21,000 nt of DNA from Mytilus galloprovincialis (taxonomy: Eukaryota), in NCBI RefSeq assembly GCF_965363235.1, contig NC_134842.1, positions 33,891,757-33,912,756 on the forward strand, given 5' to 3'. Shown here in pieces: positions 1-21,000 of the stretch (position 1 is the first letter of the stretch; each line of letters starts with the position of its first letter). The notes beneath the pieces are model-generated. The model worked only from the letters and a program-made list of their open reading frames with translations. It ran no database searches and was not told the DNA's origin. The position numbers and the translations under genes are program-made.

Positions 1-83
1 ATTTTACTTATATAACATAATTTTTAATGCATTTGCCAATTTGAAGGCTAAACGAATACCAAACTATTATATTATTTCAACAG

Positions 84-1170: not shown

Positions 1171-1344
1171 ATCCAGCATGTGATTATGAGGAAAATTCTA
1201 AAGATCCTGCTACATATTACCAAGTACTGAGAGTAAAGGGGTTTGCCGACAGGAAATTCTTACGCAGCTGTGCTCCTGGTACTATTTACAGTGATTTAGA
1301 CTGTATGTGTGTAATGGATTATGATGAAATTGCCAAAAAGACAG
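1171..1344 (+). CDS. Gene 1 exon, Cys-containing module (…NPACDYEENSKDPATYYQVLRVKGFADRKFLRSCAPGTIYSDLDCMCVMDYDEIAKKT), phase 1 to phase 1.
   Basis: Acceptor cttcttttttcag|AT at 1168-1170 and donor ACAG|GTAAGA at 1345. Only one of the three frames is open across all 174 nt, and that frame needs one base from the previous exon, matching the phase-1 exit at 290. Confidence 0.6.
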
Positions 1345-1699
1345 GTAAGATTTGAATGGCGTTCTCAATTATTTTCTTCTAAAAGAGGGACGAAAGATAC
1401 CCGAAAGATACCAAAGCGATACTCAAGCTCATAGATCGAAAATAAACTGACAACGCCATAGCTAAAAAAGAAAAAGACAAACGGACAAATAATAGTACAT
1501 AAGACACTACATAAGCAATGTTATATGATTTTTGAATAACTAAATTTTATCTAAAGATATAAAATTTATTTGTACGAGACATAGAAACAGGTTGATTAAG
1601 ATGACGTTAATTTATGATCTGTTTCTAGGAAAGTATAAATAAAATAGGTATTTTGAGACAATTTATCATGGTTGTTCACTTAAACTGAACAGTTTTAAC

Positions 1700-1910
1700 T
1701 TGGAAATAAGAAATGTAAACTTAAATATGAGGAATGTGAACTTGGGAGTGAGGAATATCAACGTGGGCGTGAGGAATGTCAACTTGGGCGTGAGGAGTGT
1801 CAAGCTCAGGTTAGAAATGTCAAGTTCGAAGTTTTAGAGGAATGTCAAGTTCGAAACGACCGAGGAATGCCAGATTCGAAGTTAGAAATGTGAAAATAGA
1901 AGTCGTTCAT
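1700..1910. repeat. Intronic minisatellite of about nine degenerate copies of a roughly 21-bp unit GAGGAATGTCAACTTGGGCGT.
   Basis: gaggaatgtgaacttgggagt / gaggaatatcaacgtgggcgt / gaggaatgtcaacttgggcgt / gaggagtgtcaagctcaggtta / gaaatgtcaagttcgaagtttta / gaggaatgtcaagttcgaaacgacc / gaggaatgccagattcgaagtta …. Confidence 0.75.
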
Positions 1911-2175
1911 CTTAAAAATAGAATTCCCTTCCAGTATTATGTAGACGTCCGGTTAGGAGGAAAAGGAGTAGGCCCGGTAAGGACCGATTTTGGCCTCAAA
2001 TTTCAGGTTCATCTGACGAAAGATTTTGACCACTTTTTAAACACTTAAGTGTCTATTTCATTTGATTCGATTAGTTTATGTCAAAGATTTTAACTGATTT
2101 AGTCATTAAAAACGATCCGATTCAAGCCTAAATATGAAAAATCTACCAAATATGCCAAAAAATGTCACTTTTCAG

Positions 2176-2322
2176 ATGGTTTTTGTCAAAAATGAAAGTG
2201 GCCGCATCCGTGTTCATCCTCAACCTTTATATATGTTATGCATAATTATAAAATACAACTTACATTTCAATATTAAAGATGAACACGAATGCGGCCACTT
2301 TCATTTTACACGAAAACCGTTC
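2176..2322. repeat. Foldback, MITE-like inverted repeat. The arms are about 42 bp and about 90% identical, with a 28/29 core match, and they are separated by about 58 bp.
   Basis: The left arm GGTTTTTGTCAAAAATGAAAGTGGCCGCATCCGTGTTCATC (2179-2218) pairs with the reverse complement of GATGAACACGAATGCGGCCACTTTCATTTTACACGAAAACCG (2278-2319). Confidence 0.6.
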
Positions 2323-2812
2323 AAAATTCAACTAAAATGCTAGAATTGTGAAGATTTTAGTTTTTAGTAATTTAGCATGACTTAATGGTGCTAGTACCCG
2401 ATATATGTACATTGTATTATCAAAAACAGCCCATATTTATGTAGCAGAAGCATTCTACTGTCCAATAAATAAATAAAAGTTTACATTTTAACAATTTTGT
2501 AAAACTGCTATATTTTGGGGCCAAAAAGGGGTCTAACTTGACCTTCTCCTTTCTCAAAACGATCCTTGTGTGGAAAATATTTAACTTTCATTATTTGGCA
2601 TTAACAAATTTGGAATAAAAGTTTTAGGTAGAAAAAAATTTAATGACATGACAAATGTATAAATTGTAAGAAAGTTGTTTTTAGATATAATATAGATGCT
2701 TTTATTCAACGTACACAGGCATAATTTATGTTAATGCGTACTCGGTCATTGTACAGCATCTGCCAATGATACTTACCAAAAACATGACGTCATGCATGAC
2801 TATATTTTTCAG

Positions 2813-3222
2813 CTTGTAGTGCAATGATTACCCAAGGTGCAAATGGTCAGTTCTACTATAAGAAAGACATGAATTTACCATTTGGAAAATCAAACTTAGA
2901 CTTGACCTCTGAACCAGATGCTATGACCTTCAATTCAAAATCCCATATCAACATATGGCGTCTTGCCAACCATGAATTTATGGACTCATTCGGGGTTGAG
3001 ATGAATGTGAAACTCACTCCATTTACCGGAAAGAAGGGATCTAAAACTGAACAGATCATGTTAAACTGTCTTCATAGTGACGCAGTACTGGAGGAAGACC
3101 AATGCTCGCCTTCTATGTCTCTACAAGTCAGGAAAGAACCTAAGAAGTACACATTCATCGCGCAATTGTTTACACGCACTGATAGAGGAACAGAATATAA
3201 TAAGACAATCTCCAGCACAGTA
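2813..3222 (+). CDS. Gene 1 exon encoding 137 aa with no domain I recognise (…ACSAMITQGANGQFYYKKDMNLPFGKSNLDLTSEPDAM…TDRGTEYNKTISSTV), phase 1 to phase 0.
   Basis: Acceptor tatatttttcag|CT at 2811-2812. A 160-codon open frame (track ORF 2824-3306) is unusually long for this AT-rich sequence. The first two bases complete a split codon G+CT. The donor GTATGT at 3223 comes just before the frame degenerates into a poly-T, intron-like stretch. Confidence 0.6.
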
Positions 3223-3791
3223 GTATGTTATCTTTTTTTTAACAGTTACAATTTTTTTTTACATTATAATTATGCAGAATTTTTAATCGATTTATCGATT
3301 ATATAACTGTTAGATTTGTCAAAAACAGTAAAATTTCATATTCATAAAAAGGAGATGTGAGTGTATACATAATCCATGGGACGACCACCCAAGGACAAAA
3401 ATTATTGCGGCAATATATTGCGGGTTACATACCTACGGCACTTTGTAATTATGGCGGATCCAGACTACTCTTCTACATTGTTCTAGACTCATTGCGATTT
3501 AGCCTAAGAGCTTAACATCTTGTAAGTTCACTGGTGCATTGTTTATATCTGCATATTGGCCTTTATGTGTGTTTATTGTTGGGTTTGTTTTTCATTTTAT
3601 GTCATTTATGTATATACTACATTTTCTTTTAATCTTTTTTTTTTGTGTCCAGAACATGCATGAAATATTTGCCGCTGCACGTAAAGCAACCAACAAACAA
3701 TTTATCAATTCGTATCTTGTATATACATTTGTATGCATGCAAACTACAGTTTTCATCTGAATTATGAATTTATCCAACGTTTCCATTTTAG

Positions 3792-3976: not shown

Positions 3977-4038
<62 letters not shown>
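3977..4038. repeat. (AT)31 microsatellite, in intron 4 of gene 1.
   Basis: Uninterrupted atat… run. Confidence 0.95.
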
Positions 4039-4042
<4 letters not shown>

Positions 4043-4155
4043 GATATATTAAAAAAAAATTGCTATGAATTATGAACAATTATTTAATGACAAGCAAAAT
4101 TATTTTTAACGATTTGTGAAAAAAATCCAATTCAGTAACTTTTTTTCTAAATTAG

Positions 4156-4886: not shown

Positions 4887-5136
4887 CTTCTTGCATATTT
4901 TAAATTTGTATTGATGTTTGCATATTCATATACCCCAACACTGGATGTTATTGTCAACTCGGTAATAGGAACATGACTGCTACATGTGTATGTATCTGAT
5001 GTAATGAAATACTTCTGTTTCAAGTTAGGGTGAAGGCAAAACGTTTATAACCGCTGCATTTGTTTGCACATATCAGAAGTCAGGAACCTGATGTTTAGTA
5101 CTTAATGTTTGTTGATGTGGTTCCTAACTTTAAGTG

Positions 5137-5142
<6 letters not shown>

Positions 5143-5169
<27 letters not shown>

Positions 5170-5360
5170 TCGATTCGTCGTTGGTGTTTCTGTTTGAATT
5201 GTTTACACTAGCATTCGAGGCCCTTTATAGTTTGCTGTTTGGTGTAATCCAAGGCTCCGTGTTGAAGGCCGTACTTTGACCTAAAATTATTTACGTTTTA
5301 CACATTGTAACTTGAAGTTGTCTAATGACATCATTTTACATTGGAGATGGTGTAACAACA
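5143..5360 (-). mobile_element. SINE-like retroposon copy in minus orientation with an A-tail of about 26 nt (T26 on the plus strand at 5143-5168).
   Basis: The reverse complement of 5176-5300 reads …GGTCAAAGTACGGCCTTCAACACGGAGCCTTGGATTACACCAAACAGCAAACTATAAAGGGCCTCGAATGCTAGTGTAAACAATTCAAACAG… followed by poly-A. The same core recurs on the plus strand at 6186-6404. Confidence 0.6.
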
Positions 5361-6185
5361 CGAAAACAAAATAATCTACAAATTTAGAACTACAAAACAA
5401 TAAACGATGGCGTTGTTGGTTTTTTTTTCTTCAAGTACAATAAGAAAAAGCTGAAACATGGCACTCTACATCACGTGTATGCTTTCAATGCCCTCTAAGA
5501 GATAACTGCAAAGGGGTTAGGAACATCTATGTTGAAATCTTTGTAGAAGGTGAACTAAATGTTTATTATACTGTATACATGTATAAAATTACTGAAAATG
5601 GAGGTTTTATGTTCAGTGCCAAAGAAGAAGGCAATACTTTACTATAGGTCTTGAAATATAACACTGGTACATACAAAATGTACATTAGGGAGTTGGTCAA
5701 TTTAGGAGATTTCGGGAGAATTATTGACAAAATATAAAGAATTGAGGAATTACAGAGAATATTGGGCATAACAATAAAGACAAAACAAGCCATAAAGCCT
5801 ACAGAAAACCATCAAAGTACAAGATGATGTCTAGAAATTATTAATATTATCACAAAGAAACTATATAGAGAGTGACAGATTATTAGTTAGGGTTACATTT
5901 AATCTGTCATCGCATACGGTGTTATAGTTAAGTTGAAAGAAAATCAAACCTACCTTATGATTGGCTACCTATGACGGTCCTACACGGTCGGTCCTATATT
6001 TGGTGGTGTTTTGTTTTTGTGGTTTTTTTTTTGCCGTTTCTGGTCATTACTTGCATATCATTCTATTATTATAATATGTCTGCTTTGAATCTTATACTTT
6101 CGGTTTTGGAATGCGCATCTGGTGCAGAACAATTGGTACCATTAATTTAATTCCAGTCTATATCTGATAATAATATATAAATAAG

Positions 6186-6404
6186 GAGATATGGTATGTC
6201 TGACAATGAGACAACTATCAACCAAAGTTCATATGGAGTGAATGTAAGCAATTACCGGTAACACGGTACGGCCTTCAACAAATAGAAAACCAATACCATG
6301 AAGTCGGCTATAAAATACCCCGACATGAAAAATATGAAACAATTTAATTGAGAAGGCTAACGTCCGAATACTTAACAAAAGTATTTACGAAAAAAAAAAT
6401 ATGA
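6186..6404 (+). mobile_element. Second copy of the same SINE-like family in plus orientation (head GATATGGTATGTCTGACAATGAGACAACTATCAACC … ACGGTACGGCCTTCAACAAATAG … GCTATAAAATACCCC … A10).
   Basis: It shares the CAATGAGACAAC head motif, the GGTACGGCCTTCAACA core and the CTATAAA(G/A) box with the minus-strand copy at 5143-5360, and it ends in an A-run at 6395-6404. Confidence 0.55.
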
Positions 6405-6480
6405 CAAACATTAAAAACGACAAAAACTGAACTACAGCCTCTTGACTTATGAAGAATGTGGCGGTGTTAATAGATATAGG

Positions 6481-6545
6481 AAGATGTGGTGTGAGTGCCA
6501 ATGAGACAACTCTCCATACAAATAACAATTTAAAAAGTAAACCAT
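6481..6545 (+). repeat. Head fragment of the same repeat family (AGATGTGGTGTGAGTGCCAATGAGACAACTCTCCATACAAATAACAATTTAAAAAGTAAACCATTAAAC).
   Basis: Near-identical to the 5' region of the copy at 6186 and to the short fragment at 20281-20310 (AGATGTGGTATGAGTGCCAAAAATAAGG). Confidence 0.55.
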
Positions 6546-7827
6546 TAAACATGTTTGTGCGCGCTCAACTTGACCTGGGACAGTGGTGTTAGAGCACAAC
6601 ATAACAAACTATAAAATTCAGTTGAAAATGACTCAATTCATCAAAATCAGAAAAACATCGAATTAAACACAGACCAGATGTTGCAAGATATTTATGCATC
6701 TCTCATCCATTACAACAAAAAAGACACCGTCCGTGAAGTACAGATCTGAGAGGACTCACAGTTACTGACAGCTATTTCAAAGCAGTTAAAATCAATAAAA
6801 GAAAAAGTGAACAATTTTCACAGCTTTCTAAATATTTTACCTTAAGTTTAACTTCATAGAAACCAGGTTTATCCTTAATTGTACATGTATCAGCTTTCTA
6901 CAGGCCAATTTTCAACATACCTTTAAAGCCTTCTAACAAAGTAACTGACCATCAAACAGAGGTACTCCAAAACAAAAACCTGGTTTTCTGGAAATCTAAA
7001 ATTAGTATACTATGGAGCGCATTAATCCTCAATTTTTAATGCAAACTCGTAGACAAGTAAATTTTGGCTCAAAATGATCTAGATATATTTCTCTTTCACC
7101 AAAAGTTTCATTTCTGCAAATTTGTTGGTTAGTTTAAGTAAACAAGGACACCAAAAGCACTATTTTGTGTCAGAGTAGGGCTACTTTTAAATTGGAGGGA
7201 GTAATTGGTGGTCTGACACCTAAAAACTGTTGCTATCGTTTAGCGTCCATCGTCCGTTTTTACGTTTTGGAATTTTCCTCAATAACCACCGTTTCTGATA
7301 GACCTTATGAGTGTCTAAAATATACTTCATAATAGTAATGTCGATTCATCCAGTTGACTCAACATGGCAACCATATTGCTAAAATTAAAAGGTAAACGTA
7401 AAATGCAAAAAATTGACTAATATTTTGAAACAAAAATACTTCTGACCGGGAAAGCATGTTTATAAAATTACAATCTTAGACTACGTACGTACCCTCTATC
7501 TCCACAAAATTACCAATTGATTCCCTGTAGTAGTGTTTATCTTTAACAGAGAGGCTAAAGACACCAAAGGTGCCTTGCACCAATGCTGTTTTCAGATGAA
7601 AATTGAAATAGTATAGCCAGTTTTGTTTTCAGTGCTGCTAATATAGTATTGTGTTGATGCGAAGGAGTTGCCAGTTTAATCCTTGCTAGAGAGGAATTCC
7701 TTTGATTGTGTTGGATATTTAGATACGCAGTCACGTCATGTCAAAGGAGGAGTTAAATCCAAACTCAAAGTATGCTCTGAACGTAAAAGACAAAAAAAAA
7801 TGAAACACTTACAATAAAATGGATAAT

Positions 7828-7930: not shown

Positions 7931-8814
7931 ATTTTGCACCATGAGGCTGACCCCTAAAATTAGTCTACTTGTTCGGTAAAAATGGACGTCTAACTACGTA
8001 TACACTCAAAAACATATAATTGAACTGAAAATTAAAAATAATAGATATGAAAGACTATAACTAAGATAATAATTTAAAAAACAACACAGCAATACACATA
8101 CATGTAGTATGACTCAGTTTAAAAGAAGCATAAGTCCAATGTCAGAATAGGTCACAACAACTATTTAAGGGATCGGTAGTTGACCCGCTGCATGACTATG
8201 TTTCTGGGCTTTTTCAACATAGTGTTTTACACTCATTTTCCAATTCCATTTTTAATTTTCGGATTTATCATACTCGGCCCATTATGCAGTACCTCCTTAT
8301 TGAATTAGTTGTTGGTTTGTTATCGCCACATTCTGACTAAAATCGGCCCACTATCCACTTGCGTTTCTACAAACGGAAGCAGGTATTATGGGCTGTTTTA
8401 GCCAGAATTTTCGAAAAGAATATGTGTGAAATACTTGCTACTAAACGTTAACCAAACACGCTACCGATCAATCTCTTCTAAAAACAGTCAATTTGACAAA
8501 AGTTAAATAAATGTATAATATATATGGTAGTGGTGAGAATCCGAAATTTTCATCTGATTTGTTTTTCCTAAGGAAATATATCATTTAAAGTTTTCTTAAA
8601 TCCAATTTCAAATTAAGATATTGATACAAGTCCCATTACAATCATTGCTTCCATTTTAGACCTGTGGTCAGTACTTAAATGAGTGACTATGTCAATGCCC
8701 TTTAGGCAACTTGTATTTAAATTGAGACGATCTTAATTTGTCTGTCTTTTATCTATATAATATCTTATCTTACATGTTCATCTCAATCAAATGTTCAATT
8801 AAAAACATTCCTTA

Positions 8815-9108
8815 GGGAGCTACCATTTGATTTTTATGGGGGGGCTAGGATGAAATTTGAAAAAAATAGGCAGGACAGGAGTTTTGAGTAAAAAAAAAAG
8901 GCAGGATGAGACACTTTTTAAAAAAAAAGGCAGGATGACAATTTAGGTAAAAAAAGTCAGGATAAACTAATAAAAAAAAAGGCAGGACCGAATAGAGTGA
9001 AAAATAAAAAGGCAGGACAGAGATTACAACTAAAAAAAAATGCAGGACAAAATTTTTCATCCTAGCCCCCCCCCCCCCCCCCCCCATAAAAATCAAATGG
9101 TAGCTCCC
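8815..9108. mobile_element. Non-autonomous DNA transposon of MITE type, Tourist-like (PIF/Harbinger-like). It has roughly 40-bp terminal inverted repeats and a TTA target-site duplication.
   Basis: The left end GGGAGCTACCATTTGATTTTTATGGGGGGGCTAGGATGAAA (8815-) is the reverse complement of the right end TTTCATCCTAGC(C)20ATAAAAATCAAATGGTAGCTCCC (-9108). Both ends are flanked by TTA (8812-8814 and 9109-9111). The element has no coding capacity. The 83-aa minus-strand ORF in the track is an artefact of the poly-G/poly-C runs. Confidence 0.75.
8865..9052. repeat. Internal tandem array of the MITE: seven degenerate copies of an A8-10-GGCAGGAY-plus-variable-tail unit of about 27 bp.
   Basis: aaaaaaataggcaggacagg…, aaaaaaaaaaggcaggatgag…, aaaaaaaaaggcaggatgaca…, aaaaaaagtcaggataaac…, aaaaaaaaaggcaggaccgaa…, aaaataaaaaggcaggacaga…, aaaaaaaaatgcaggacaaaa…. 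Confidence 0.8.
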
Positions 9109-9308
9109 TTACGAAGCATAATATAATTTGATGATTCATTAAAATTAATGTGTGAAATAAATTCGTTTTATTTTCTATCGCAATTATGTATTTTTGTTTC
9201 TATGGGAAACATGATGGTATTATTATGAAGTGACTCGGATACACCTTTTTTGGTTCTCTCGATAAATATATAAATGTTCTTACTTTAAATAAAACTAATA
9301 TAAACAAC

Positions 9309-9331: not shown

Positions 9332-11337
9332 GACCTTTTCTAGAAGGGAATATTTTAATTTTAAACGAGAAAGTCTATAAAAAAGTTACAGAAACAGAAA
9401 CGAGTTTTGGTTCCATGTAATTGTTGACTTTCCTTTTTCTGAATGGTGATGCTTATCTGGCTCATTCTAACAGTATATATGTGTTTACACATCTTGTTCC
9501 CTATGCCTATGTCTGCAGTGACGTTTTAATATTTAGATAAATGTAATCTTTCATGACTGGTAAATTATTATGTGTTTCAAGATATACAATCAAGTAGATT
9601 TCTTGGAAAAACTGTAATACAGCATTCAATGAATTTTAAACCACATTTTTAGGAGACATTGCGTACGTGAATTTGACAGTCGTCAACGTCACACAAGGAA
9701 AGGGAGACATATTCTCTTTCATTAGTAATTTATAACTTCATCAGCGATAGTAACAATAACTGCATGGAATTTTATTCAACGAATCTTTACAAAACAAAAT
9801 GGCTTTATCCTAAACAGTCATACATAGCACAATCTAATTGACCATATTCGATATACTAATGATAAAAAAAAAACTAATAGATTACAAATACATTAATCAA
9901 ATACAAGTTAAAGAAGACACTTTGAAAAAATAAAACAAACGCAAAGCGGCGCAAACGCAAACGCAATCGAAAAGACAAAGACAATGAAATGTGCATTAGA
10001 CAAATACCCGTATGTCATTCATACAATCTGATGGTAGATATCTAGTGCAATCTTTGTTGATGGTATCTTAGAAAAATGTCATGTACCTGACGCAATGGGA
10101 ACATTGTAGGTGTGTCTTTATTGTGGTTGTAGATTATTATCTAAAGTGTGGGGACAATAAGTGTTGCCACTATTATACACATTAAAATGTTACTCTTATA
10201 TTTACATATAATAGTTAAAACAATTTGGTCTTTAACTTTCATTGTGAAATACCAATTATATAATATATACTATACTGGAGCAAAGTTGTGAATTTAATTT
10301 CCACGATAAGTCATTAGCAGATAAAATGTATTTAATATTCTAGTTAATAATTAATTCTAAGCAAAGGTACATAATACCAATATGATTAATCTCTCTGGAC
10401 AAATATTCCACCGAACAACCATTACTATACACATTATTATAAATCCATCCACATAACTTTTATTAAATATTCAAAACCCCCCGGTGTCGGATGATTTTAA
10501 ACTAATATATTTACAACAATTCTGCAATTACTGTACTAGAAATTCTTTACTAAGAATAGACTTCCAACCATGTTTAGAAAAAAAGAAGATCTTTCTATAA
10601 ACAGACATTCTTATATGGTAAAATAATTTAACTCTTTTTAACTTTTTCGAATAAAAAGATTTAAATATACAATGTAGGTTACCAGTGCAGCAAGTCCAAT
10701 TTGGTAACTTGTTTAACCAAAATAATATCCATACCTAGTTACATTTAGTGCCCTACTTATGTAATGAATTCTACTATTAAGTACTAATGAATATGGATTT
10801 AACATTTTTTTTTTATTATCATTTAATATATTTTAGAACAAACTTTTTATTCAATACCTGAAATTGCCTCTAAGTTATAATAAAAGAAATGAGTTACAAT
10901 TCATCCGATTTATTTCATGTAAATTTGTCTAAACTAGAACAAAACTCCGCTTCCGGTTATGCAAACTTTGTGAAATCGTGCATTTTACTAGACATCAACT
11001 GATGTTATCAAATTTCCACATTTTCCAGGCCGTTACTTTTTACCTAGGGCTACAGAAATTCTTTCCTAAACACATGGCTAAAGTCATCATTTAAAAATGT
11101 CCATTTTTTCTTCACGATAGATTAGGTCCGGTAACTCCTTACACAAAAACGCTCAGGGGAGACTACAAAATGACAATTAATCGCCTATCAGAATCTGAAA
11201 TCTTGAGTTTTCACCCTGATGGAACGAATAATAAATATTGTATAATGTGACAAAGGTTTCCGTCATTAAAAGAAATAGTTCCATGAGAGCGTTCCGTGTG
11301 ATGGTGTCTTGTTAAATTTTCGGTTGAAGTGGATATT

Positions 11338-12479: not shown

Positions 12480-12552
12480 ATGATTATGCGGTGGTTAGTA
12501 ACATTAGCAGTGTGCATTGCCACTCTATCAACACTGGGATATTGCCAGATCG
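12480..12552 (+). CDS. Gene 2 first coding exon, encoding a signal peptide (MIMRWLVTLAVCIATLSTLGYCQI+G), exiting in phase 1.
   Basis: ATG at 12480 in a good context (aacaATGa). The peptide has a hydrophobic core, a small-residue cleavage region and the donor ATCG|GTGAGT at 12553. A phase-1 exit after a signal peptide is the classic arrangement for secreted modular proteins. A strong acceptor-like cttttttcag at 12451-12460 immediately upstream hints at a 5' non-coding exon further upstream. Confidence 0.7.
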
Positions 12553-12911: not shown

Positions 12912-13469
12912 ATAACTGTTTGGACGGCAAAGCAGATATAGTGATAGCTTTAGATGGAACCCGACTAAATACAGCTACGGAACATACCCAATTTGTTTTT
13001 ATGAAAGAGTACATCAAGAAAATTTTGAACAAAATAACACTGAATTTTATCAACGGTACAATGGTTTCTCTTTTTACATACGGGACAACTTCAACGGAGA
13101 TTGCCGACTTCAGTGCTGATAAAAACAGTATACTAACTAAGTTGCAAGCCTTAACATATCCGAGACTTCCAACTCGATATACCAATCTGGCACTAGACCA
13201 CATCACAGAGAAATTTAAGAAATTCAATCGCCGTGGTGTGCCAAGAATAGCCATTATATTTGTAAACGGAAACACAAACGGAGATTTCTCTACGCTAAAA
13301 ATAGCCGCTAAAAAAGCAGCAATAAACGAGAACATTCAAATAATAGCTGTTTCTGCAAATTCCACGTTTGCTGTTCGAGACCTTGACACTATCACAAGCT
13401 ATGTTCCAGGAAGAATCATTTCTGCGGTTTATAGAGATGACGATCCTGATATGGCCGCTGTTTGCCAAT
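12912..13469 (+). CDS. Gene 2 exon encoding VWA domain 1 (NCLDGKADIVIALDGT…IQIIAVSAN…MAAVCQ), phase 1 to phase 1.
   Basis: Acceptor tattactaatttcag|AT. A 186-codon open frame. VWA landmarks are present: a βA strand DIVIALDGT, RYTNLALDH in the TNTG-AL position, a βD strand IAIIFVNGNTNG, and ENIQIIAVSAN. The donor AATG|GTAAGT is at 13470. Confidence 0.85.
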
Positions 13470-14119
13470 GTAAGTTTGAATTATTTTAAAATTTGATTTA
13501 AAAAAATCCAGACATTGGTTTTTAACCTAAATTTATCAATATTTGCATTCTTAATGTTGAAATTTGCATGGAATATATCAATAAGAATATCGTTTAACAA
13601 CATTTTTATGTTTTATCAGAGAAAAAAAATCCTAATTAAAATCGAGTCCTTTGAAAATACAATGAGCAAACTGTCCCTTCTAACTACATATATTAGATAT
13701 AACATGTACAAAAATGTACATTATAGATGCCACATTGAGAATGGTAAAGAAAACAAAAAAACAATTGTATGAAATTTGTGCTATTTTATATATAGTTTTT
13801 AATATTTTTCTAGCTTTGTCTAGAATTATTTGATGCCGTGAAATATATAATGTTTTGTATAGTAATTTTATCTACACTCTAACTTATAGTGATGTTACAA
13901 TGAAATACTTCTTCATTAGATTTTCATGTTTGAAAAATCATAATGATGGTTTAATTTGATTTAAACGTGTTTATATATTTGATACAAATATGCCATTCCT
14001 AATGTCCATCAAAATCCATAAGCCCGAAGAATATGTGTAAAGTTGTAAACACCATACAACTTTTGCTAGACTTCCGAAATTTATTACTATAGCTTTTGAG
14101 TTGTATGTTTTTTTTTCAG

Positions 14120-14149
14120 ATATGATAGGAGGAACTGTCTTGCCGCGAA
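14120..14149 (+). CDS. Gene 2 linker micro-exon of 30 nt (Y-MIGGTVLPR-), phase 1 to phase 1.
   Basis: Acceptor tttttttttcag|AT and donor GAAG|GTAAGT. It is in phase with both flanking VWA exons. It resembles the other two linker micro-exons in length, phase and flanking context. Confidence 0.55.
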
Positions 14150-14661
14150 GTAAGTACCTTTTGAATAGAATTTAATTTTGGATTTAACATGTCTTTTAAT
14201 TGGTTGAAAGTTGTTTTGTCTATCAGCTCATAGACATACTTTTTTCATGAAGCCGTGACCTCTTAAACTTTTTTTCATGATTTCCTCCTTAAAAATAGAA
14301 TTTAGAATTGAATGATAAGGAACGGCTGTAGCATGTTTTCTCTCTATTCAAATAACCTCAAAATATAGTGCACACTTTTAAATAACCTGTATAATGAGGT
14401 TATTTCGGATATACAGAAAACATATTACAGTCACACCGCCATTAGATAATAAAAATTTTGCTTTACGGATTGACAATTTTTACTGATAAAGCGTTACATT
14501 GTGAACATAAATAAAATAAGCAGCCACTTTTAAACATTTCTGAAGAAACAATCGAGTAGAATTTTTATTTCCACTAATTGTGCGATAGCACTGAAACAAA
14601 TTAAAAGCTAGCAAAATGAACATAAAAGAACGGTTACATTACTTTTTTATTTTTATTTCAG

Positions 14662-15210
14662 ATTGTACCGGGAAAGCTCACGTTATTCTCGGCATTGACC
14701 TTTCAACAAAATCCCGGTTCGACATGGCTTTAAATCTTGGGATTGCATTGTTCAGTAACGTACGACAAGTTAGAAGAACATTGTTGTTAAATGATGCTAA
14801 TAACTATGAGTATACTTTTGCCCCTGGTGTGAATTCTAAATCAGAGTTCGGTAAAATTCAAAGCGAGGCAGCCAGCCGTTTGAATTCAGGTTCATATGAT
14901 GCAAAGGGAATGGTGGACAGCTTTGTAAGCGCCTTTAATAAAAGTCTACTAACAACCATGCATATGGCTAGAGTTGCTATTCTTATATCAGACACGGATT
15001 CTGGTTCTCCAACACAGATGAGACAAGCAGTAGATATGCTTCGGAACCAAAACATTAAGTTGATAATCATAGCAGTACAAGCAGAATTTAAGCCAAGTTT
15101 GCAGACTCTTTTAGAACTTACGGAGGAAAACTTACAAAACCAGATAGTAACTTCAGATATGACACTCTCTGTAAGCGGACTCAACCAAGTAATGAACTCT
15201 GTTTGTTATG
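14662..15210 (+). CDS. Gene 2 exon encoding VWA domain 2 (NCTGKAHVILGIDLSTKS…IKLIIIAVQ…NSVCYG), phase 1 to phase 1.
   Basis: Acceptor ttttatttcag|AT at 14659-14661. 183 codons are open. The VWA fold pattern is present (βA strand HVILGIDLS, βD strand VAILISDTDSGS, then KLIIIAV). The donor TATG|GTAAGA is at 15211. Confidence 0.85.
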
Positions 15211-15545
15211 GTAAGACTTTTTATGTATATTTGAATATCAATTTGATTTTATATTCTTCAAAATAAAGCGTGGTTGGTTTCATTTTACATGAACACAACC
15301 AATAGATATAAGTAATAAAACAAATTTAGCTTTTGTTTATATTTCAAAAGAGTAAAGATAAAGACATTTTTATTTCCTACATGACATTAGCTACGTGACC
15401 AAATTATATATGGAAAATCAGACTCCTCTCTTTATAATGTATCGAGTCTTAGAATAAATAAAAAAATCGCTGCCTAGTATATATTAGTTACGGTTATATG
15501 TGCTCATACTTGCAATTGGCTAATCTTTAGCTTTAATACTTTCAG

Positions 15546-16118
15546 CAATTCAAAGATGTCCAGGGGAGATTGACGTCATGATTGCCATGGATACGTCCTA
15601 CAGTATAGCATCTCAACCTGAAAAAGTGCAATTGGTTAAGGCTTATACCAAAATTATTGCCAATAGTTTTATTCACAACAGAGTACATGCAGCACAAATA
15701 GCCATCATTGCGTTTGGTACAAGTGTTTTCCATGTATCGTTCTTTGGGGATAACCTCATTGATATTATTGAAAACATCAACCTTGCTCAACCAATTTCGA
15801 ACGATTATAAAACTAATACAGATATAGCCTTAGACTATATGATCAATAGGACGAACTCAAAGGGACGACCAGGAGTTCCGAAAGTAGCTATTATAGTAAC
15901 AGACGGTAAATCTACAAATGGATTACAAAATCTACAAAACAGTGCTATTAGGGCAGCAATGAACAATTTGATAACTGTAGCCGTGGGAGTTGGGGATGGC
16001 TATATAATGGAAGAATTGAGCAATTTAACCAATGGAATTCAAGAAAATATTATTGAATCTACTTTTGAAGATCTGACATCAATCGCTGCTTCGAAAACAG
16101 TAGATAGATTGTGTTTAT
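15546..16118 (+). CDS. Gene 2 exon encoding VWA domain 3, the only copy with a complete MIDAS (AIQRCPGEIDVMIAMDTSYS…NTDIAL…VAIIVTDGKST…ITVAVGVG…DRLCL), phase 1 to phase 1.
   Basis: Acceptor taatactttcag|CA at 15543-15545. 191 codons are open. All three MIDAS elements are present: DxSxS (DTSYS), T (KTNTDIAL) and D (TDGKST). The donor TTAT|GTAAGT is at 16119. Confidence 0.87.
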
Positions 16119-16629
16119 GTAAGTTCCACGACATTTCAATATTGGACAGTGTTGGCTTGCTGGGGTTTGATACTTTCATTTAATGATACATTCCCATACC
16201 AAATTTTAGCGTCCGAAAAAAACATTATTATGCTTTGGAGTTTACAGAAAAAGAATTTCGTATCAAACCAGAGTTCTGGAAATCTTTTGACGCTGGTGAT
16301 CCATGGGAAAAATCTCCTGATCTTTAAGTTTATTTCTGTTGCAAATTACCAAAACTGTGTCGTTTGAAAAGAAGTCAGTACATAAAACTGGGGGAATTAT
16401 TCCTTTGTTCTAATTATAGTTTTGTAGAATAAATAAACGTGTAATTTACATCCAATGTAGTCTTGGCCGAAGAGGAGTTAAAAATTTTGAAGGAAGTCAT
16501 TTGTTTTTTACACTAGAGTTTAATTGCTTTTAATTCTAAATGCGCAGCATCATAATCTTAAACATAAACTTTGTTATGAAGCTTTATAAAAATCAGCATT
16601 CTAAATAATATTTTTTTTATATTTTGTAG

Positions 16630-16659
16630 TCGCAATAGACGGACAAGAAACGAGTCAAG
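16630..16659 (+). CDS. Gene 2 linker micro-exon of 30 nt (F-AIDGQETSQ-), phase 1 to phase 1.
   Basis: Acceptor ttttttttatattttgtag|TC and donor CAAG|GTATGT. It is the same length and phase as the micro-exon at 14120, and it similarly follows a C-x-C/CxG domain end. Confidence 0.55.
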
Positions 16660-17493
16660 GTATGTTATGTGATTTATAAATAATATTGCATGTATCTGAA
16701 GAAAGCCGTTCATTAATGCTTTGAATTATAAAAATAATAATTTCATCAAGCTTTCATCAGAGAAAAATTGTTAAATAGTTATAATGACTAAAAAAATAAT
16801 TATGTTCTAAAAATTAATTTATACATGATATCAGAACTAACAGAAATCGAGATTAATTACTATATCAAACCCACATCTCTGAAATACGAGAGTGCTAATG
16901 TTGTTTTTCTCCAAATCTAACTAAAGTCTGATTGCTTGGAAGGAACCAACGCACCTTCGGCAAGAAAACTGAAAATCCCTGTCTGTTAAGACTAGAGTCG
17001 AGCGCACCTGCAATGTACAGGTTTCGAACAAACAACCTCGGATTTGAAATACTGCTAGTGATACATTAGTGGAACTACTTTGATCACTAGTCCATTGAGA
17101 CCTCAATGTGCTCATTATATTTCAGTTGAGATATTATCTTATGATATACTAGTAATACAAGATCATTTAACGTTTGTTATCGCTATTTTACAAAATAGTC
17201 CTTTGATCTGACTGACTGATTACTTCCTTTCTCAGCACAGTCGAGTGATATGAAAAAAGTTATCGCTAGAAAAACAGCGCACGTGCCGTTGTCAATGATT
17301 TTAACAACTTCGTCATAAGTTAAACAGCGATAAACAGATTACCATTGGTCATCTCAACTCGATTGCTTTTTGCACTATCACAGTACCGACTCGAGCGAGA
17401 AAATCAATCTCGTTGAGATAACCAACAATAATCTAAATTTATCCATAACAAACACGTTCTTAAAATAATTTCTTGCATTACCTTTTTTATTAG

Positions 17494-17876
17494 TTTGTGA
17501 AGGCGCTGCTCACGTTACGATAGCAGTAGATGTCGGTGATGCAAAGAACTTTGATGAAGTAAAGCTTTTTGCTGCTAAGCTTATAGCAAATCTTAAAGTA
17601 CAAGAAATGTTGGTATCTATTGTAATTGGCAGTACAGGGGCTGAGTATAATTTTCCCGCCAATACTGACAGCAATACTATTCGGAATACTATTTTGAGAT
17701 CTACAAATTCTGACCAAAACATCTACAACCACACTGGTACCATAAATCGTGCAGCAAAGGCATTTGCTGCAAAACCAATCATGCCTAGGATTGTATTGTT
17801 CATCACTGATGGAAAATCGACTAATCCTGCTTCGTCTATAGCTGCTGCTAGAATTGCTGCAACAAATGACATTCAG
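17494..17876 (+). CDS. Gene 2 exon encoding the N-terminal two-thirds of VWA domain 4 (VCEGAAHVTIAVDVGDAKN…HTGTINRAAKAF…IVLFITDGKSTN…ATNDIQ), phase 1 to phase 0.
   Basis: Acceptor ccttttttattag|TT at 17492-17493. The frame is open and is the same frame as track ORF 17607-17882. VWA motifs are present (TDGKST βD). The donor CAG|GTATGA at 17877 comes after a complete codon. Confidence 0.78.
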
Positions 17877-18358
17877 GTATGAATACTTTCTTTTATAAAT
17901 ACGGACATGATATTAGTTCCATTGCCGTAACTATTCTCCAAGATAATCAGAACGCATTTACACGTATGACCCTCAGCGATTCAACATTTTCATATACCAT
18001 ACAAAATGTTCCATTTGCTTCAATATTTGAAATTACGCAAGTGCTTGGTCGATACTGTAGAATTGTGACTAGAGTTACAGTATCTTTTTTTTTATTGCCA
18101 GAATGATGACGTATTATGCTGAACTGAATCAGTTCGATTATGGTATGAAAATCAAACCATAAACCAGATGACAACTTTAAGAAATGTATCCTTGACCACA
18201 GCTTAAACTGTGTAATCTCATCTTATCATTTTGAATTAAGCAATATGTATCTCCCTTAAATTCAAAACTCGGATTCCTTGTCCGGATTTGTCTATCCTCT
18301 GACATTTAGTTTAATCCTCTTTTCAACATTTGTAGTAGATTTTGGATAAAATGAAGAA

Positions 18359-18425
18359 TTGAAACGGGGAATGTTTCAAAGAGACAACAACTCGACCAAA
18401 GAGCAGAAAAATGTCATCAATGGGT
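18359..18425 (+). repeat. Second copy of the GAGACA…CGACCAAAG…CAATGGGTCT repeat, intronic in gene 2.
   Basis: See 7828-7930. Confidence 0.45.
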
Positions 18426-18581
18426 CTATATTCAAATATTTAACCTCATGCTTTACTGTAGAAATGTGTACTTAGTTGTTCAAAATGTGCATCTGGTAAA
18501 TCAAATTTGTACCTTTAATGCTTTTATTTAATCGAAGAACATTATTGCGTAGCATCGTCATTTATTTTCTTTTATTTAAAG

Positions 18582-18738
18582 TTTTTAGCACTTGGTCTAA
18601 TAAAAAAAGATATATCGGCTGTGGATATGAACGAGATAACCGGAATAGCTGGTGGTATTATACAAAATAGATTCGTTATATCAGAGGAAGGTCTACAAAG
18701 TAGTGGTGTAAACCTAGTCATTATGTCTGTCTGTCATG
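18582..18738 (+). CDS. Gene 2 exon encoding the C-terminal third of VWA domain 4 (FLALGLIKKDISAVDMNEITGIA…VNLVIMSVCH+G), phase 0 to phase 1.
   Basis: Acceptor ttttcttttatttaaag|TT at 18580-18581. This is the only phase-0-compatible acceptor; the nearby tttttag at 18588 gives an immediate stop. The sequence aligns with the C-terminal halves of the other VWA copies (…AVG…EL..IT…C-x-G end). The donor CATG|GTATGT is at 18739. Confidence 0.7.
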
Positions 18739-19293
18739 GTATGTATTATAATATCAAAAGCTTCTGAATAGTATTATAGGGGTCACTAACAATTATGATG
18801 TCGCAAAATAGTGAACAATCTCAAGTCGAATCTGGTAAAAATAAGATGTTAACCTGTAATGTAAAGCGTAATGCTGAAGTCTCTTCAAACGAAATACACA
18901 AAAATGCTTAAATTTTTAAAACTTTATTGCTGTTTATTCTAATGCAAATTAGTCTACGGTTAATACAATGCAACCAATGCAATGTAACACTTCCGACCTG
19001 CGCGCGCATTGTCTTATCTGTATTTATTTTCCAGGACTAGGTTTGCTTTTTTTTCAAACCTATAGTTCCCATTTCCTAATTCATTACATTTTTTTGTAGC
19101 ATATGAGAGTCTGTAAAACGCAAAACTCTATGCATTTACGTCAGTACGAAACGAAACTTGTTAAAAACCGTCTGAAGCTGGGAGTTGTTTTAGACACACG
19201 TAAAGGATGCTCAGAATAGTAGTTTCCGTTTCTAAGGGAATGACTTTTACATTTTAATTTATGTATCATTGCATCATATTTATTATTTTGTAG

Positions 19294-19326
19294 CTATAAG
19301 TGATTGGAGTGGAACATCACTACTGA
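19294..19326 (+). CDS. Gene 2 linker micro-exon of 33 nt (A-ISDWSGTSLL-), phase 1 to phase 1.
   Basis: Acceptor tattattttgtag|CT and donor CTGA|GTAAGT. It is in phase with both neighbours and is the third member of the linker micro-exon series. Confidence 0.5.
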
Positions 19327-19639
19327 GTAAGTTTTTATAATTTAAAAAAATAAGGTTTTTAATTTAAATTTAAATTTTAGCTACGATGATTCCTCATTTG
19401 TGTTTCATTTTCTGATATTTCTTACATTATATTTCAATATCCAACTGGTCTCGTTATGTGAAATTTGTATTTATTTATTTTTTACATATTGAGATACATG
19501 TATTATTGTGACAAAAATGTTTGGTATCAAAGTTATGAAAGATGCTTTAACTTTCGTTTTAATATTTATGGGTTCCAACAATTATACGCCAAGAATTTTA
19601 GGAATTTGTACAACATGATGTATTGTTTATTAATTTTAG

Positions 19640-20167
19640 AATTTATGGGTCCTGCCGAAGTATCACTAATGATTGACTCCTGCGATGGAACCATGCACAC
19701 CTTCTACCGTGCATTTGCTAAAGATGTTCTTAGATATATCAACGTGGAGGACAACAAGGTCAAATTAAATGTAGCCTCGTTTTGCTCTAAAGTGGAACCA
19801 ATCAGCTCATATCAGGACATGTATTATATTCATCCTAGTCTAAAATATGAAAATATAATGGCGAACAAGCAATGGACAGCATCGCAAATAATCGGCGACT
19901 ACATCCTGCATTTTAATGATATCCGCTCATCGAATAAAATTGGAATTGTCTTAGTAAACGATGCCACTAATGAACCGAATTTAAGACTAATTGCACAGTT
20001 TGCTTACCAGCAAGGCATTACTCTTTTTGCAATTGGAATTGATTACGGACAGCAGAACCTTGAAATGAAGTTGGCACAAATAAGTCCTAACGGCTATATG
20101 AAATTGCCTCTTAATCAACTTAACGTTATGGGGATGAACTTCCTTATTACCAACTTTATGGCAATGG
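19640..20167 (+). CDS. Gene 2 exon encoding VWA domain 5 (K-FMGPAEVSLMIDSCDGT…IGIVLVNDATN…ITLFAIGIDYG…NFMAMG), phase 1 to phase 1.
   Basis: Acceptor ttaattttag|AA at 19638-19639. 176 codons are open (track ORF 19465-20190, whose N-terminus is intronic). It has the VWA βA, βD and C-terminal patterns. The donor ATGG|GTATGT is at 20168. Confidence 0.82.
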
Positions 20168-20280
20168 GTATGTTAATTTTTAAATGTTGATTTGGTTTAT
20201 TTATGTGATATGAAAAATTTCAGTTGTTTGTGTAATGTGTGATGAGCATATGGTTCCTTTTTTAGCTAGTAGATACAAGA

Positions 20281-20310
20281 AGATGTGGTATGAGTGCCAA
20301 AAATAAGGTT
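20281..20310 (+). repeat. Short fragment of the same repeat head inside intron 10 of gene 2.
   Basis: AGATGTGGTATGAGTGCCAA matches the head at 6481. Confidence 0.4.
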
Positions 20311-20745: not shown

Positions 20746-21000
20746 CTAATGCTAGTGACAGATACGTTGCTATGGGACTTGTTGGTTTTAATCCGACGAT
20801 AGACTTAGGCAACCAGTCCATCCGATATAATCATTTGGTAACCAGTCTTCAGGGCCAGACCAGGATGTTAACTGGAAATATCAGGAATGAGATGGATAGT
20901 CGGATATCAAATGCAGTTTACACCGGAAATGGATTGGCCATTCATGACGCAATTGCAAATTTTAGACAGCTATTCAAAAATAAGTCTGGAAAGAAATATG
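20746..21000 (+). CDS. Gene 2 exon running off the window end, encoding a divergent VWA-like domain 6 (A-NASDRYVAMGLVGFNPTIDLGNQSIRYNHLVTSL…AVYTGNGLAIHDAIANFRQLFKNKSGKKY…), entered in phase 1.
   Basis: Acceptor gatatcaaattgcag|CT at 20744-20745. 85 codons are open to the window edge in the phase dictated by the previous exon. The T-G-N-G-x-A-I…F segment resembles the VWA α2/α3 'TNTGxAL' region. The βA strand and MIDAS are not recognisable. Confidence 0.55.

What the first reader, a model, noticed from the sequence alone, without database searches (positions are those of the whole stretch)
12912..20167. One-VWA-domain-per-exon architecture with phase-1 symmetric exons and three homologous 30-33 nt linker micro-exons
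VWA1, VWA2, VWA3 and VWA5 are each encoded by a single exon (558, 549, 573 and 528 nt), and each is entered and left in phase 1. Between VWA1/VWA2, VWA3/VWA4 and VWA4/VWA5 sit micro-exons of 30, 30 and 33 nt, also phase 1 to phase 1. The peptides they encode, YMIGGTVLPR(N), FAIDGQETSQ(V) and AISDWSGTSLL(K), each follow a domain ending in CQ, CL or CH and precede a (N/V)C-x-G-x-A-x-V start of the next domain. This is the textbook signature of domain amplification by exon duplication and shuffling. The micro-exons would be missed by most ab initio gene finders, which would then call a frame-broken or truncated protein.
Basis: seen in the sequence. Interest (0 to 1): 0.6.

Follow-up and report, generated by a model that had tools for sequence, protein, structure and literature searches.

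The report
Mussel multi-VWA gene with linker micro-exons
This is the front half of a mussel (Mytilus) gene for a secreted protein built from repeated VWA adhesion domains; each domain sits on its own exon and three tiny linker exons lie between them, a real and conserved layout but a textbook one that is already annotated in a sister species.

Summary
Exons of 558, 30, 549, 573, 30, 383+157, 33 and 528 nt have AG/GT borders and splice into one open frame. That frame holds five Pfam VWA domains, and 9 of the 10 introns in the window are phase 1.

The window comes from a Mytilus mussel. The M. coruscus orthologue (CAC5419279.1, auto-named "COL6A", 2197 aa, 91% identical) already contains all three micro-exon peptides. 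Mapped on its genome, it has the same exon sizes, and 20 of its 23 introns are phase 1.

The micro-exons are real coding sequence. Between the window and M. coruscus they carry 9 substitutions, 8 of them synonymous (P about 7e-5). Their lengths and splice sites are unchanged, while the flanking introns differ 1.1 to 11-fold in length.

- Skipping the micro-exons does not break the frame.
- A standard pipeline did find them, in M. coruscus.
- Their mutual homology is not demonstrable (p about 0.01 to 0.11).

One VWA domain per phase-1 exon is already described for collagen VI alpha3 and for sponge aggregation factors. Verdict: real, well supported and ordinary. No transcript evidence was available.

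The parts
12480..12552 (+). Exon 1: start codon and signal peptide (MIMRWLVTLAVCIATLSTLGYCQI), ending in phase 1
   Evidence: Read from the sequence. The donor is G|GTGAGT. It matches the first exon of the M. coruscus model (MRWLVTLTVCIATLSTLGYGQI; 67 nt, phase 0 to 1).
12912..13469 (+). VWA1 exon, 558 nt, phase 1-1
   Evidence: The M. coruscus orthologous exon is also 558 nt. Nucleotide identity is 88.9% and dN/dS is 0.11. It has two Cys, at residues 3 and 185 of 186.
14120..14149 (+). Micro-exon m1, 30 nt, phase 1-1, encodes (Y)MIGGTVLPR(N)
   Evidence: It is the best in-frame AG..GT candidate in its intron, with 0/400 shuffles reaching its score. M. coruscus has a 30-nt exon with 3 substitutions, all synonymous, and conserved CAG| and |GTAAGTAC. 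The peptide is present in CAC5419279.1.
14662..15210 (+). VWA2 exon, 549 nt, phase 1-1
   Evidence: The M. coruscus exon is 549 nt. In the distant relative L006 the exon is 543 nt and also phase 1-1. It is 100% identical to part of M. edulis CAG2185681.1.
15546..16118 (+). VWA3 exon, 573 nt, phase 1-1. It is the only domain with an intact MIDAS DxSxS motif (DTSYS), and it begins with a built-in 4-residue linker, AIQR
   Evidence: The M. coruscus exon is 573 nt and the L006 exon is 567 nt. No micro-exon precedes it in any of the three lineages.
16630..16659 (+). Micro-exon m2, 30 nt, phase 1-1, encodes (F)AIDGQETSQ(V)
   Evidence: Joint-best candidate in its intron, with 18/400 shuffles reaching its score. 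Across three lineages (window, L023, M. coruscus) there are 5 synonymous and 2 non-synonymous changes, with TAG| and |GTATGTTA conserved. The peptide FAIDGQETRQV is in CAC5419279.1.
17494..17876 (+). VWA4 first exon, 383 nt, phase 1 to 0
   Evidence: the junction NDIQ|FLALG aligns without a gap to the other VWA domains. The M. coruscus exon is 383 nt.
18582..18738 (+). VWA4 second exon, 157 nt, phase 0 to 1
   Evidence: The M. coruscus exon is 157 nt.
19294..19326 (+). Micro-exon m3, 33 nt, phase 1-1, encodes (A)ISDWSGTSLL(K)
   Evidence: The splice score alone is weak, with 100/400 shuffles reaching it. Conservation is strong: 32/33 nt identical in M. coruscus and 32/33 in the roughly 90% lineage L026. 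Both changes are synonymous, and the alignment decays right after GTAAG. The peptide is in CAC5419279.1.
19640..20167 (+). VWA5 exon, 528 nt, phase 1-1. It is a divergent VWA domain without the terminal Cys pair
   Evidence: The M. coruscus exon is 528 nt.
20746..21000 (+). First 255 nt of the next exon (351 nt in M. coruscus), entered in phase 1. It starts a sixth, two-exon VWA-like domain
   Evidence: The ORF is open to the window end. It matches M. coruscus exon 11, ANASDRYVAMGLVGF.... A VWA hit over this region of the orthologue scores 59.5 bits.

Best explanation
The region is the 5' half of a Mytilus gene for a large secreted mosaic protein. The protein has a signal peptide, about nine VWA domains, Thr-rich spacers, chitin-binding CBM14 modules and a C-terminal domain. 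This is a Pif/BMSP-like architecture that databases auto-name 'COL6A'.

The gene is assembled almost wholly from symmetric phase-1 exons. Each VWA domain from its N-terminal Cys to its C-terminal Cys-x is one exon (two exons for VWA4). The short peptides that tether one domain to the next are encoded either at the start of the next VWA exon (AIQR before VWA3) or on their own 30-33-nt phase 1-1 exons (m1, m2, m3).

Shown: the exon borders, the open frame, the VWA identity, purifying selection on the micro-exons in the proposed frame, and conservation of exon sizes and phases in M. coruscus.

Inferred:
- The two terminal Cys of VWA1-4 form the usual clamp disulfide, so the micro-exon peptides are flexible inter-domain linkers.
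- The array grew by ancient duplication of phase-1 exons.
- Because every unit is a multiple of 3 nt and phase 1-1, single domains or linkers could be skipped without frame loss, as in collagen VI alpha3.
For: - The spliced frame is open and the splice sites are canonical.
- Pfam finds five VWA stretches.
- The window is collinear with the M. coruscus locus L008.
- The annotated orthologue P0154 (CAC5419279.1) contains YMIGGTVLPRN, FAIDGQETRQV and AISDWSGTSLLK.
- Exact mapping of P0154 on L008 gives 24 exons. The first ten are 67, 558, 30, 549, 573, 30, 383, 157, 33 and 528 nt, and 20 of 23 introns are phase 1.
- Pooled micro-exons show 8 synonymous and 1 non-synonymous change, dN/dS about 0.03 against 0.13 for the big exons, with P(at least 8 of 9 synonymous) = 7e-5. 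Intron lengths differ 1.1 to 11-fold.
- Two further lineages add only synonymous changes in m3, and 3 synonymous plus 1 non-synonymous change in m2.
- The alignments lose register immediately beyond the donor sites.
- A relative with 51.5% amino-acid identity keeps VWA2 and VWA3 as single phase 1-1 exons joined by CH|AITKC.
- VWA1-4 each have exactly two Cys, at the extreme ends of the domain.
- CBM_14 is found in the orthologue's C-terminal part.
Against: - No transcript or junction read was seen. No spliced, RNA-derived protein for this gene turned up in the protein collection, so constitutive inclusion is not shown.
- The M. coruscus model is a prediction. I only infer from the method paper (PMC7227121) that RNA-seq hints support it.
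- The splice-site score of m3 alone is no better than chance.
- The disulfide clamp and the linker role are inferred from what is known of VWA domains, not tested here.
- The C-terminal LG-like domain that defines Pif/BMSP proteins was not detected by Pfam.
Confidence: 0.9

Rival explanations
1. The micro-exons are chance AG...GT open segments inside introns and are never spliced in. The mature mRNA joins the VWA exons directly, which is also in frame.
For: Skipping keeps the frame. The splice scores of m2 and m3 are reached by 4.5% and 25% of shuffled introns. No transcript evidence was obtained.
Against: Lengths are exactly conserved. The AG/GT and extended donor sites are conserved. There are 8 synonymous against 1 non-synonymous substitution versus M. 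coruscus (P = 7e-5), and 10 against 2 over all lineages, while the neighbouring intron sequence is unalignable or 55-75% identical with many indels. The segments are included in the M. coruscus gene model. Direct joining would leave only 2-3 residues between the last Cys of one domain and the first Cys of the next.
Confidence: 0.03
2. The micro-exons are cassette exons, included in some isoforms and skipped in others, which changes the spacing between neighbouring VWA domains. This is a variant of the best explanation rather than an alternative to it.
For: All three are multiples of 3 nt and phase 1-1, so skipping is in frame. In collagen VI alpha3, exon skipping of single-exon type A repeats is documented (PMC2116307). 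About 60-80 nt upstream of m1 and m2 is conserved at roughly 80%.
Against: There are no isoform data. Very low dN/dS and consensus-like GTAAGT/GTATGT donors fit constitutive use equally well. The upstream conservation may be no more than the branch point and polypyrimidine tract.
Confidence: 0.3
3. The three micro-exons are not homologous copies of one ancestral linker exon. They arose independently, for example by intron gain inside linker-coding sequence at the start of VWA exons, or by separate exonisation events.
For: Peptide similarity is not significant against random windows of the same protein (565/5000) and only p = 0.013 against shuffles. There is no DNA similarity in the exons or their flanks. 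The VWA2-VWA3 linker (AIQR) lies inside the VWA3 exon in three lineages, which shows that a linker can exist without an intron. VWA1 and the later VWA exons have no preceding micro-exon.
Against: Position, phase and length are the same in all three. A-I follows the intron directly or after one residue in m2 (FAI), m3 (AI) and VWA3 (AI), with MI in m1. This is a post-hoc motif with roughly 1e-3 probability. The VWA domains themselves are only 18-26% identical, so loss of detectable similarity in a 10-residue linker is expected even if the linkers are homologous.
Confidence: 0.45
4. The conserved 30-33-nt islands are non-coding regulatory elements (intronic enhancers or small RNAs), not exons.
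For: They are short conserved islands inside fast-evolving introns.
Against: Substitutions fall almost only on synonymous positions of the proposed frame. The conservation is bounded exactly by AG and GT. There is no Rfam or tRNA hit. The segments are translated in the annotated orthologue.
Confidence: 0.02

Closest known systems
Mytilus coruscus CAC5419279.1 / UniRef100_A0A6J8EEZ2 'COL6A' (2197 aa), on CACVKT020009019.1 in GCA_011752425.2
   Same: It is the orthologue: 91% amino-acid identity over 1054 residues in a single ungapped block. Exon sizes and phases are identical, and all three micro-exon peptides are present.
   Different: It is a different species. The introns are 1.1 to 11 times longer and m2 has S to R. 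The name is misleading, because the protein has no collagen triple-helix region: the longest G-X-Y run is 3.
Collagen VI alpha3 N-terminal type A (VWA) repeats (chicken gene, Doliana et al. 1990, PMC2116307)
   Same: The signal peptide and each VWA repeat are encoded by individual exons. Exon skipping yields in-frame isoforms with different numbers of repeats.
   Different: It is a vertebrate collagen with a triple helix. That source describes no separate 30-nt linker exons. I did not verify the intron phases of COL6A3 here; that they are phase 1 is my recollection of Patthy's class 1-1 modules.
Sponge aggregation factor genes AqAFB/AqAFE (PMC5400394)
   Same: All VWA domains lie in single exons with short spacer sequences at the exon ends. 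154 of 155 introns are phase 1, which the authors interpret as an exon-shuffling signature.
   Different: The spacers sit inside the VWA exons rather than on separate micro-exons. The proteins are otherwise unrelated (Calx-beta and Wreath domains).
Pif/BMSP family of mollusc shell matrix proteins (PMC11291548)
   Same: They are secreted proteins with tandem N-terminal VWA domains followed by chitin-binding domains. Some members have poly-Thr inserts between the VWA and chitin-binding domains. The orthologue here has a VWA array, Thr-rich spacers and CBM_14.
   Different: Bivalve BMSPs have four VWA domains, while this gene has about nine. The LG domain was not detected by Pfam, and phylogenetic placement was not tested. 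That paper does not mention exons or introns.
Mytilus galloprovincialis proximal thread matrix protein 1 (PTMP1, PDB 4CN8)
   Same: It is the closest solved structure by sequence to the VWA3 exon (E = 1.7e-22) and is a mussel protein of two tandem VWA domains.
   Different: It is a byssal protein with only two domains. Its gene structure was not examined.

Membership tests
VWA domain (Pfam PF00092) | A match to the family profile above the curated gathering score | tested here: met
   168.5 bits against a cut-off of 23.8, with five stretches in the spliced window protein. The orthologue has six stretches at 255.8 bits.
VWA domain (Pfam PF00092) | MIDAS metal-site motif D-x-S-x-S at the end of the first strand | tested here: inconclusive
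   The motif is present only in VWA3 (DTSYS). It is absent from VWA1, 2, 4 and 5. MIDAS is not required for family membership, but it bears on metal-dependent ligand binding.
Class 1-1 (symmetric phase-1) exon-shuffling module | Both flanking introns are in phase 1 and the exon borders coincide with the domain borders | tested here: met
   VWA1, 2, 3 and 5 and m1-m3 are all phase 1-1 and multiples of 3 nt. VWA4 as a two-exon unit is also phase 1-1. In the orthologue 20 of 23 introns are phase 1. The Cys-to-Cys domain borders lie within 2-5 residues of the exon ends.
Class 1-1 (symmetric phase-1) exon-shuffling module | The intron positions and phases are conserved in orthologues | tested here: met
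   M. coruscus has identical exon sizes. In L006, at 51.5% amino-acid identity, VWA2 is 543 nt and VWA3 is 567 nt, and both are phase 1-1.
Micro-exon (very short internal coding exon) | Length below the usual thresholds (27 nt or less in strict definitions, 51 nt or less in loose ones) | tested here: inconclusive
   At 30, 30 and 33 nt they meet the loose definition and miss the strict one. The thresholds are quoted from my own knowledge.
Micro-exon (very short internal coding exon) | Demonstrated inclusion in mature mRNA | not testable with these tools
   No RNA-seq or cDNA resource was available. The indirect evidence is purifying selection in frame and inclusion in an annotated model that is probably RNA-seq guided.
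Collagen VI (the name given to the orthologue) | A collagenous Gly-X-Y triple-helical domain | tested here: not met
   The longest G-X-Y run in the 2197-aa orthologue is 3 triplets. The protein is therefore not a collagen VI chain and shares only the VWA modules.
Pif/BMSP shell matrix protein family | VWA domain(s) followed by chitin-binding domain(s) | tested here: met
   The orthologue has a VWA array followed by CBM_14 at 22.5 bits against a cut-off of 22.1. The score is only just above the cut-off. The window itself holds only the VWA part.
Pif/BMSP shell matrix protein family | A C-terminal laminin-G-like (LG) domain, and placement inside the family tree | tested here: inconclusive
   There is no Pfam LG hit at E of 1 or less on the C-terminal 420 residues. 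No phylogeny was made. Presence in shell was not tested.

The most novel reading that the evidence does not exclude
The ancestral duplication unit of this mussel gene may have been a two-exon cassette, a linker micro-exon plus a VWA exon. On this reading the VWA3 exon start (AIQR/AITK) is a fused remnant of such a linker exon. The surviving micro-exons would be regulated cassettes that let the animal vary the spacing between disulfide-clamped VWA domains in a matrix protein.
Probability: 0.12. Interest if true: 0.35.

Novelty: new member of a known kind. Interest (0 to 1): 0.15.

Why it matters
The main value is practical. It gives a validated exon map for a large Mytilus VWA/chitin-binding matrix-type gene. 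It also shows that the M. edulis database model for this locus (CAG2185681.1) is mis-joined, while the M. coruscus model is sound. That matters for shell and byssus proteomics, which search against such models.

Conceptually it is one more clean example of phase-1 modular gene construction. The small twist is that three inter-domain linkers sit on their own 30-33-nt exons. It does not change any current view.

Tried and rejected
Only the single-exon query worked.
2. A metagenome scan with the VWA3 exon found no relative.
3. The exhaustive representative search with VWA3 gave one 57%-identical genomic ORF, which became L006. Otherwise it returned only distant multi-VWA proteins at 22-34% identity, whose linkers are not comparable.
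4. The spliced protein could not be submitted to the representative search, which accepts only contiguous window translations.
5. Literature searches for the SRA run numbers and the protein accessions found nothing. The exact species of the window and of L006 therefore remain inferred.
6. A possible fourth micro-exon at 20270-20287 (VDTRRC) was rejected. It is absent from the M. coruscus protein. It is not aligned at the orthologous position, and it overlaps a dispersed repeat that matches L008 35572-35602.
7. Contigs that carry the VWA2 ORF (L009, L010, L020-L022) stop short of m1. For m1 the only comparison is therefore with M. coruscus.
8. I tested whether the upstream gene is a close paralogue and found only a weak CBM14-level similarity.
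9. tRNA and Rfam scans of the window were empty.
10. Structure prediction was not run. It would not report Cys-Cys distances, and the two-domain constructs of interest are not contiguous in the window.

Full report
**What is in the sequence.** The window is AT-rich (about 32% G+C) and has eukaryotic GT-AG introns. All have an AG before and a GT after, the lengths are exactly as stated (558, 30, 549, 573, 30, 383+157, 33 and 528 nt), and the concatenated exons give one open frame of 946 codons in the frame that corresponds to phase-1 borders. Pfam finds five VWA stretches (168.5 bits, cut-off 23.8).

A signal-peptide exon at 12480-12552 (MIMRWLVTLAVCIATLSTLGYCQI) ends in phase 1. An exon that starts at 20746 runs off the window. 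Nine of the ten introns in the window are phase 1. The exception is the phase-0 intron inside VWA4, whose borders are confirmed by a gapless fit to the other domains.

**Are the micro-exons more than chance?** With a crude generic splice-site matrix, each proposed micro-exon ranks first or joint first or second among all in-frame AG..GT candidates in its intron. Against dinucleotide shuffles only m1 stands out: 0/400 for m1, 18/400 for m2 and 100/400 for m3. Because they are 30, 30 and 33 nt and phase 1-1, leaving them out also gives an open frame of 1025 codons with no stop. Frame alone cannot show whether the micro-exons are used.

**Finding relatives.** Two word-indexed protein searches with long spliced queries saturated and returned nothing. 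A metagenome scan was also empty. A search with the VWA3 exon alone found a 100%-identical ORF on Logan genomic contigs.

Exact look-ups of window ORFs then showed which 90% clusters they belong to. These clusters contain two annotated proteins:
- Mytilus coruscus CAC5419279.1 ('COL6A', 2197 aa, P0154).
- Mytilus edulis CAG2185681.1 (563 aa, P0170).

The window is therefore a Mytilus locus. It is 100% identical to the M. edulis protein across the VWA2 exon and 91% identical to M. coruscus over 1054 residues in one ungapped block.

**The decisive comparison.** P0154 contains all three micro-exon peptides, in the contexts ...AAVCQYMIGGTVLPRNCSGKAHV......ERLCLFAIDGQETRQVCEGAAHI... and ...SVCHAISDWSGTSLLKYMGPAEI.... 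I fetched its genomic locus (L008) and mapped the protein on it exactly. The gene has 24 exons, and 20 of its 23 introns are phase 1. The first ten exons are 67, 558, 30, 549, 573, 30, 383, 157, 33 and 528 nt, the same sizes as in the window from the second exon on. The window and L008 are collinear.

At nucleotide level:
- m1 differs at 3 sites, all synonymous.
- m2 differs at 5 sites, 4 synonymous and 1 giving Ser to Arg.
- m3 differs at 1 site, synonymous.

AG and the extended donors (GTAAGTAC, GTATGTTA, GTAAG) are unchanged, and the alignment falls apart immediately downstream of each donor.

Pooled over the three micro-exons there are 8 synonymous and 1 non-synonymous change, giving dN/dS of about 0.03. 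The large exons give 0.13. The probability of at least 8 of 9 changes being synonymous under neutrality is 7e-5. Over the same interval the nine introns differ in length by 1.1 to 11-fold.

Two contigs from a more divergent Mytilus lineage, about 83-90% nucleotide identity here, add more data. For m2 they add two synonymous changes at new codons, a third that matches M. coruscus, and one non-synonymous change (L023). For m3 they add one synonymous change (L026). Over all lineages the count is 10 synonymous against 2 non-synonymous.

**A more distant relative.** A contig from another species (L006) is 51.5% identical at the amino-acid level. It carries the whole VWA2 exon (543 nt), a 211-nt intron and the VWA3 exon (567 nt). 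Both exons are phase 1-1, and the junction reads CH|AITKC, against CY|AIQRC in the window. The phase-1, one-domain-per-exon layout, and the absence of a micro-exon before VWA3, are therefore old.

**What the gene is.** The orthologue has a signal peptide followed by about nine VWA or VWA-like units. It also has two Thr-rich spacer exons, of 153 nt and 45 nt, and the 45-nt exon is itself a phase 1-1 short exon. These are followed by Cys-rich exons with a CBM_14 chitin-binding match, and by a C-terminal domain on four exons. This is the VWA plus chitin-binding architecture of the mollusc Pif/BMSP shell-matrix family (PMC11291548). However, the LG domain was not detected and no phylogeny was made, so I do not claim membership. 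It is not a collagen, since the longest Gly-X-Y run is three triplets. The closest solved structure to VWA3 by sequence is the mussel byssal protein PTMP1 (4CN8, E = 1.7e-22).

**How it most likely works.** VWA1-4 each have exactly two cysteines, 2-5 residues from the start of the exon-encoded unit and at its second-to-last residue. In well-studied VWA domains such as the von Willebrand factor A domains, these positions form a disulfide that ties the termini together; this point rests on my own knowledge and is inferred here, not tested. The micro-exon peptides lie wholly between the last Cys of one domain and the first Cys of the next, so they are inter-domain tethers of 10-11 residues. Only VWA3 keeps a DxSxS MIDAS motif.

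Because every unit is phase 1-1 and a multiple of 3 nt, any unit could be duplicated, lost or skipped without frame damage. That is the accepted mechanism by which such arrays grow. It is also the basis of exon-skipping isoforms in collagen VI alpha3 (PMC2116307). Whether skipping happens here is unknown.

**The 'homologous' claim.** The five VWA domains are only 18-26% identical to one another, so the duplications are ancient and introns cannot date them. The three micro-exon peptides are weakly similar. Their sum-of-pairs score is exceeded by 67 of 5000 shuffles, but by 565 of 5000 random windows of the same protein. Their DNA and flanks show no similarity beyond AT-rich noise.

One suggestive, post-hoc pattern exists. 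After the Cys-x|intron border, the sequence reads YMI, AIQ (inside the VWA3 exon; AIT in L006), FAI and AIS. This would fit a common origin of the linkers, with the VWA3 linker fused to its exon. It is not proof, and I rate common and independent origin as about equally likely.

**The 'gene finders miss them' claim.** The M. coruscus model includes all three micro-exons. The genome paper states that genes were predicted with BRAKER using RNA-seq (PMC7227121). That this model comes from that annotation is my inference from the ENA-style accessions.

The M. edulis model is indeed defective. It starts at a spurious exon at about window 9628-9723 and joins to VWA2. It leaves VWA2 at an internal GTAAGC donor, then jumps to VWA4b and on to a far downstream exon. 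This is wholesale mis-joining, not a frame problem caused by micro-exons.

**Comparison with what is known, and novelty.** One VWA domain per exon is described for chicken collagen VI alpha3, together with a separate signal-peptide exon and in-frame exon skipping (PMC2116307). Single-exon VWA domains with short spacers in genes where 154 of 155 introns are phase 1 are described for sponge aggregation factors and interpreted as exon shuffling (PMC5400394). The phase bias seen here (20 of 23) is of the same kind. The only feature I did not find described is that three of the spacers sit on their own 30-33-nt exons, and this is already implicit in a public gene model. I therefore class the finding as a new member of a known kind and score its interest low.

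**Limits.** No transcript data could be examined, so inclusion levels and possible cassette behaviour are unknown. For m1 only one cross-species comparison was available. The species of the window, probably of the M. edulis complex, and of L006 are inferred.

Noticed in passing
window 1-3303 (+ strand): This is the 3' end of a neighbouring upstream gene. The ORF at 2-322 carries a CBM_14 chitin-binding domain (36.4 bits). There is a Cys-rich ORF at 1128-1352, and an ORF at 2800-3303 is 84% conserved with M. coruscus (L008 436-961). Similarity to the VWA gene's own C-terminal part is only weak, so a tandem-paralogue relationship is not shown.
   Followed up: partly
window ~9628-9723, 14662-15180, 18582-18738: The M. 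edulis database protein CAG2185681.1 (563 aa) is a mis-joined model of this locus. It has a spurious first exon upstream of the true start. It skips the signal peptide, VWA1 and m1, then uses an internal GTAAGC donor inside VWA2. It then skips VWA3, m2, VWA4a, m3, VWA5 and several later exons.
   Followed up: yes
L001-L005, L023, L026, L027 against window 14883-16288, 16485-18259, 19233-20300: Logan genomic contigs from runs SRR15505940-47, SRR22865492 and SRR29182347 are only 82-94% identical to the window in nucleotides, yet the VWA3 protein sequence is 100% identical. They come from a divergent haplotype or a sister Mytilus species. L001-L003 and L005 lose alignment at window 16288 and end 58 to 173 nt later, which suggests a repeat or insertion there.
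   Followed up: partly
window 16923-16929: Contigs L007, L009, L010 and L011 (99% identical to the window) carry about 64 extra bases at this point in the m2-VWA4 intron. This is an indel or tandem-duplication polymorphism.
   Followed up: no
window 5038-5314, 6165-6547, 20270-20300: These belong to a dispersed repeat family. The segments match 5-8 places in both orientations inside introns of the M. coruscus gene (L008 10497-10774, 17295-17484, 24716-24897, 35565-35675, 39498-39806). The 20270-20300 copy explains a spurious 18-nt 'exon' candidate (VDTRRC).
   Followed up: partly
window 8808-9115: A 37-nt inverted repeat (8808-8844 and 9079-9115, 94.6% identical) encloses A-rich 27-30-nt tandem arrays at 8891-9053. 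The element looks like a MITE.
   Followed up: no
window 1728-1880 and 3977-4049: There are minisatellites with 21-nt and 25-nt units (3.6 and 2.6 copies) and an (AT)36 microsatellite.
   Followed up: no
L008 33082-33234 and 36240-36284 (M. coruscus, beyond the window): The same gene has two further short phase 1-1 spacer exons rich in Thr, of 153 nt and 45 nt (the latter encodes ATTTTTSTTTTVPTT). Separate linker exons are therefore a general habit of this gene, not only of its first half.
   Followed up: partly
window 19640-20167 (VWA5) and 20746-21000: VWA5 lacks the terminal Cys pair and has Cys at residues 15 and 49 instead. The next exon begins in what aligns to the middle of a VWA domain (profile positions 43-166), so the sixth unit seems to lack the first strand and helix.
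   Followed up: no
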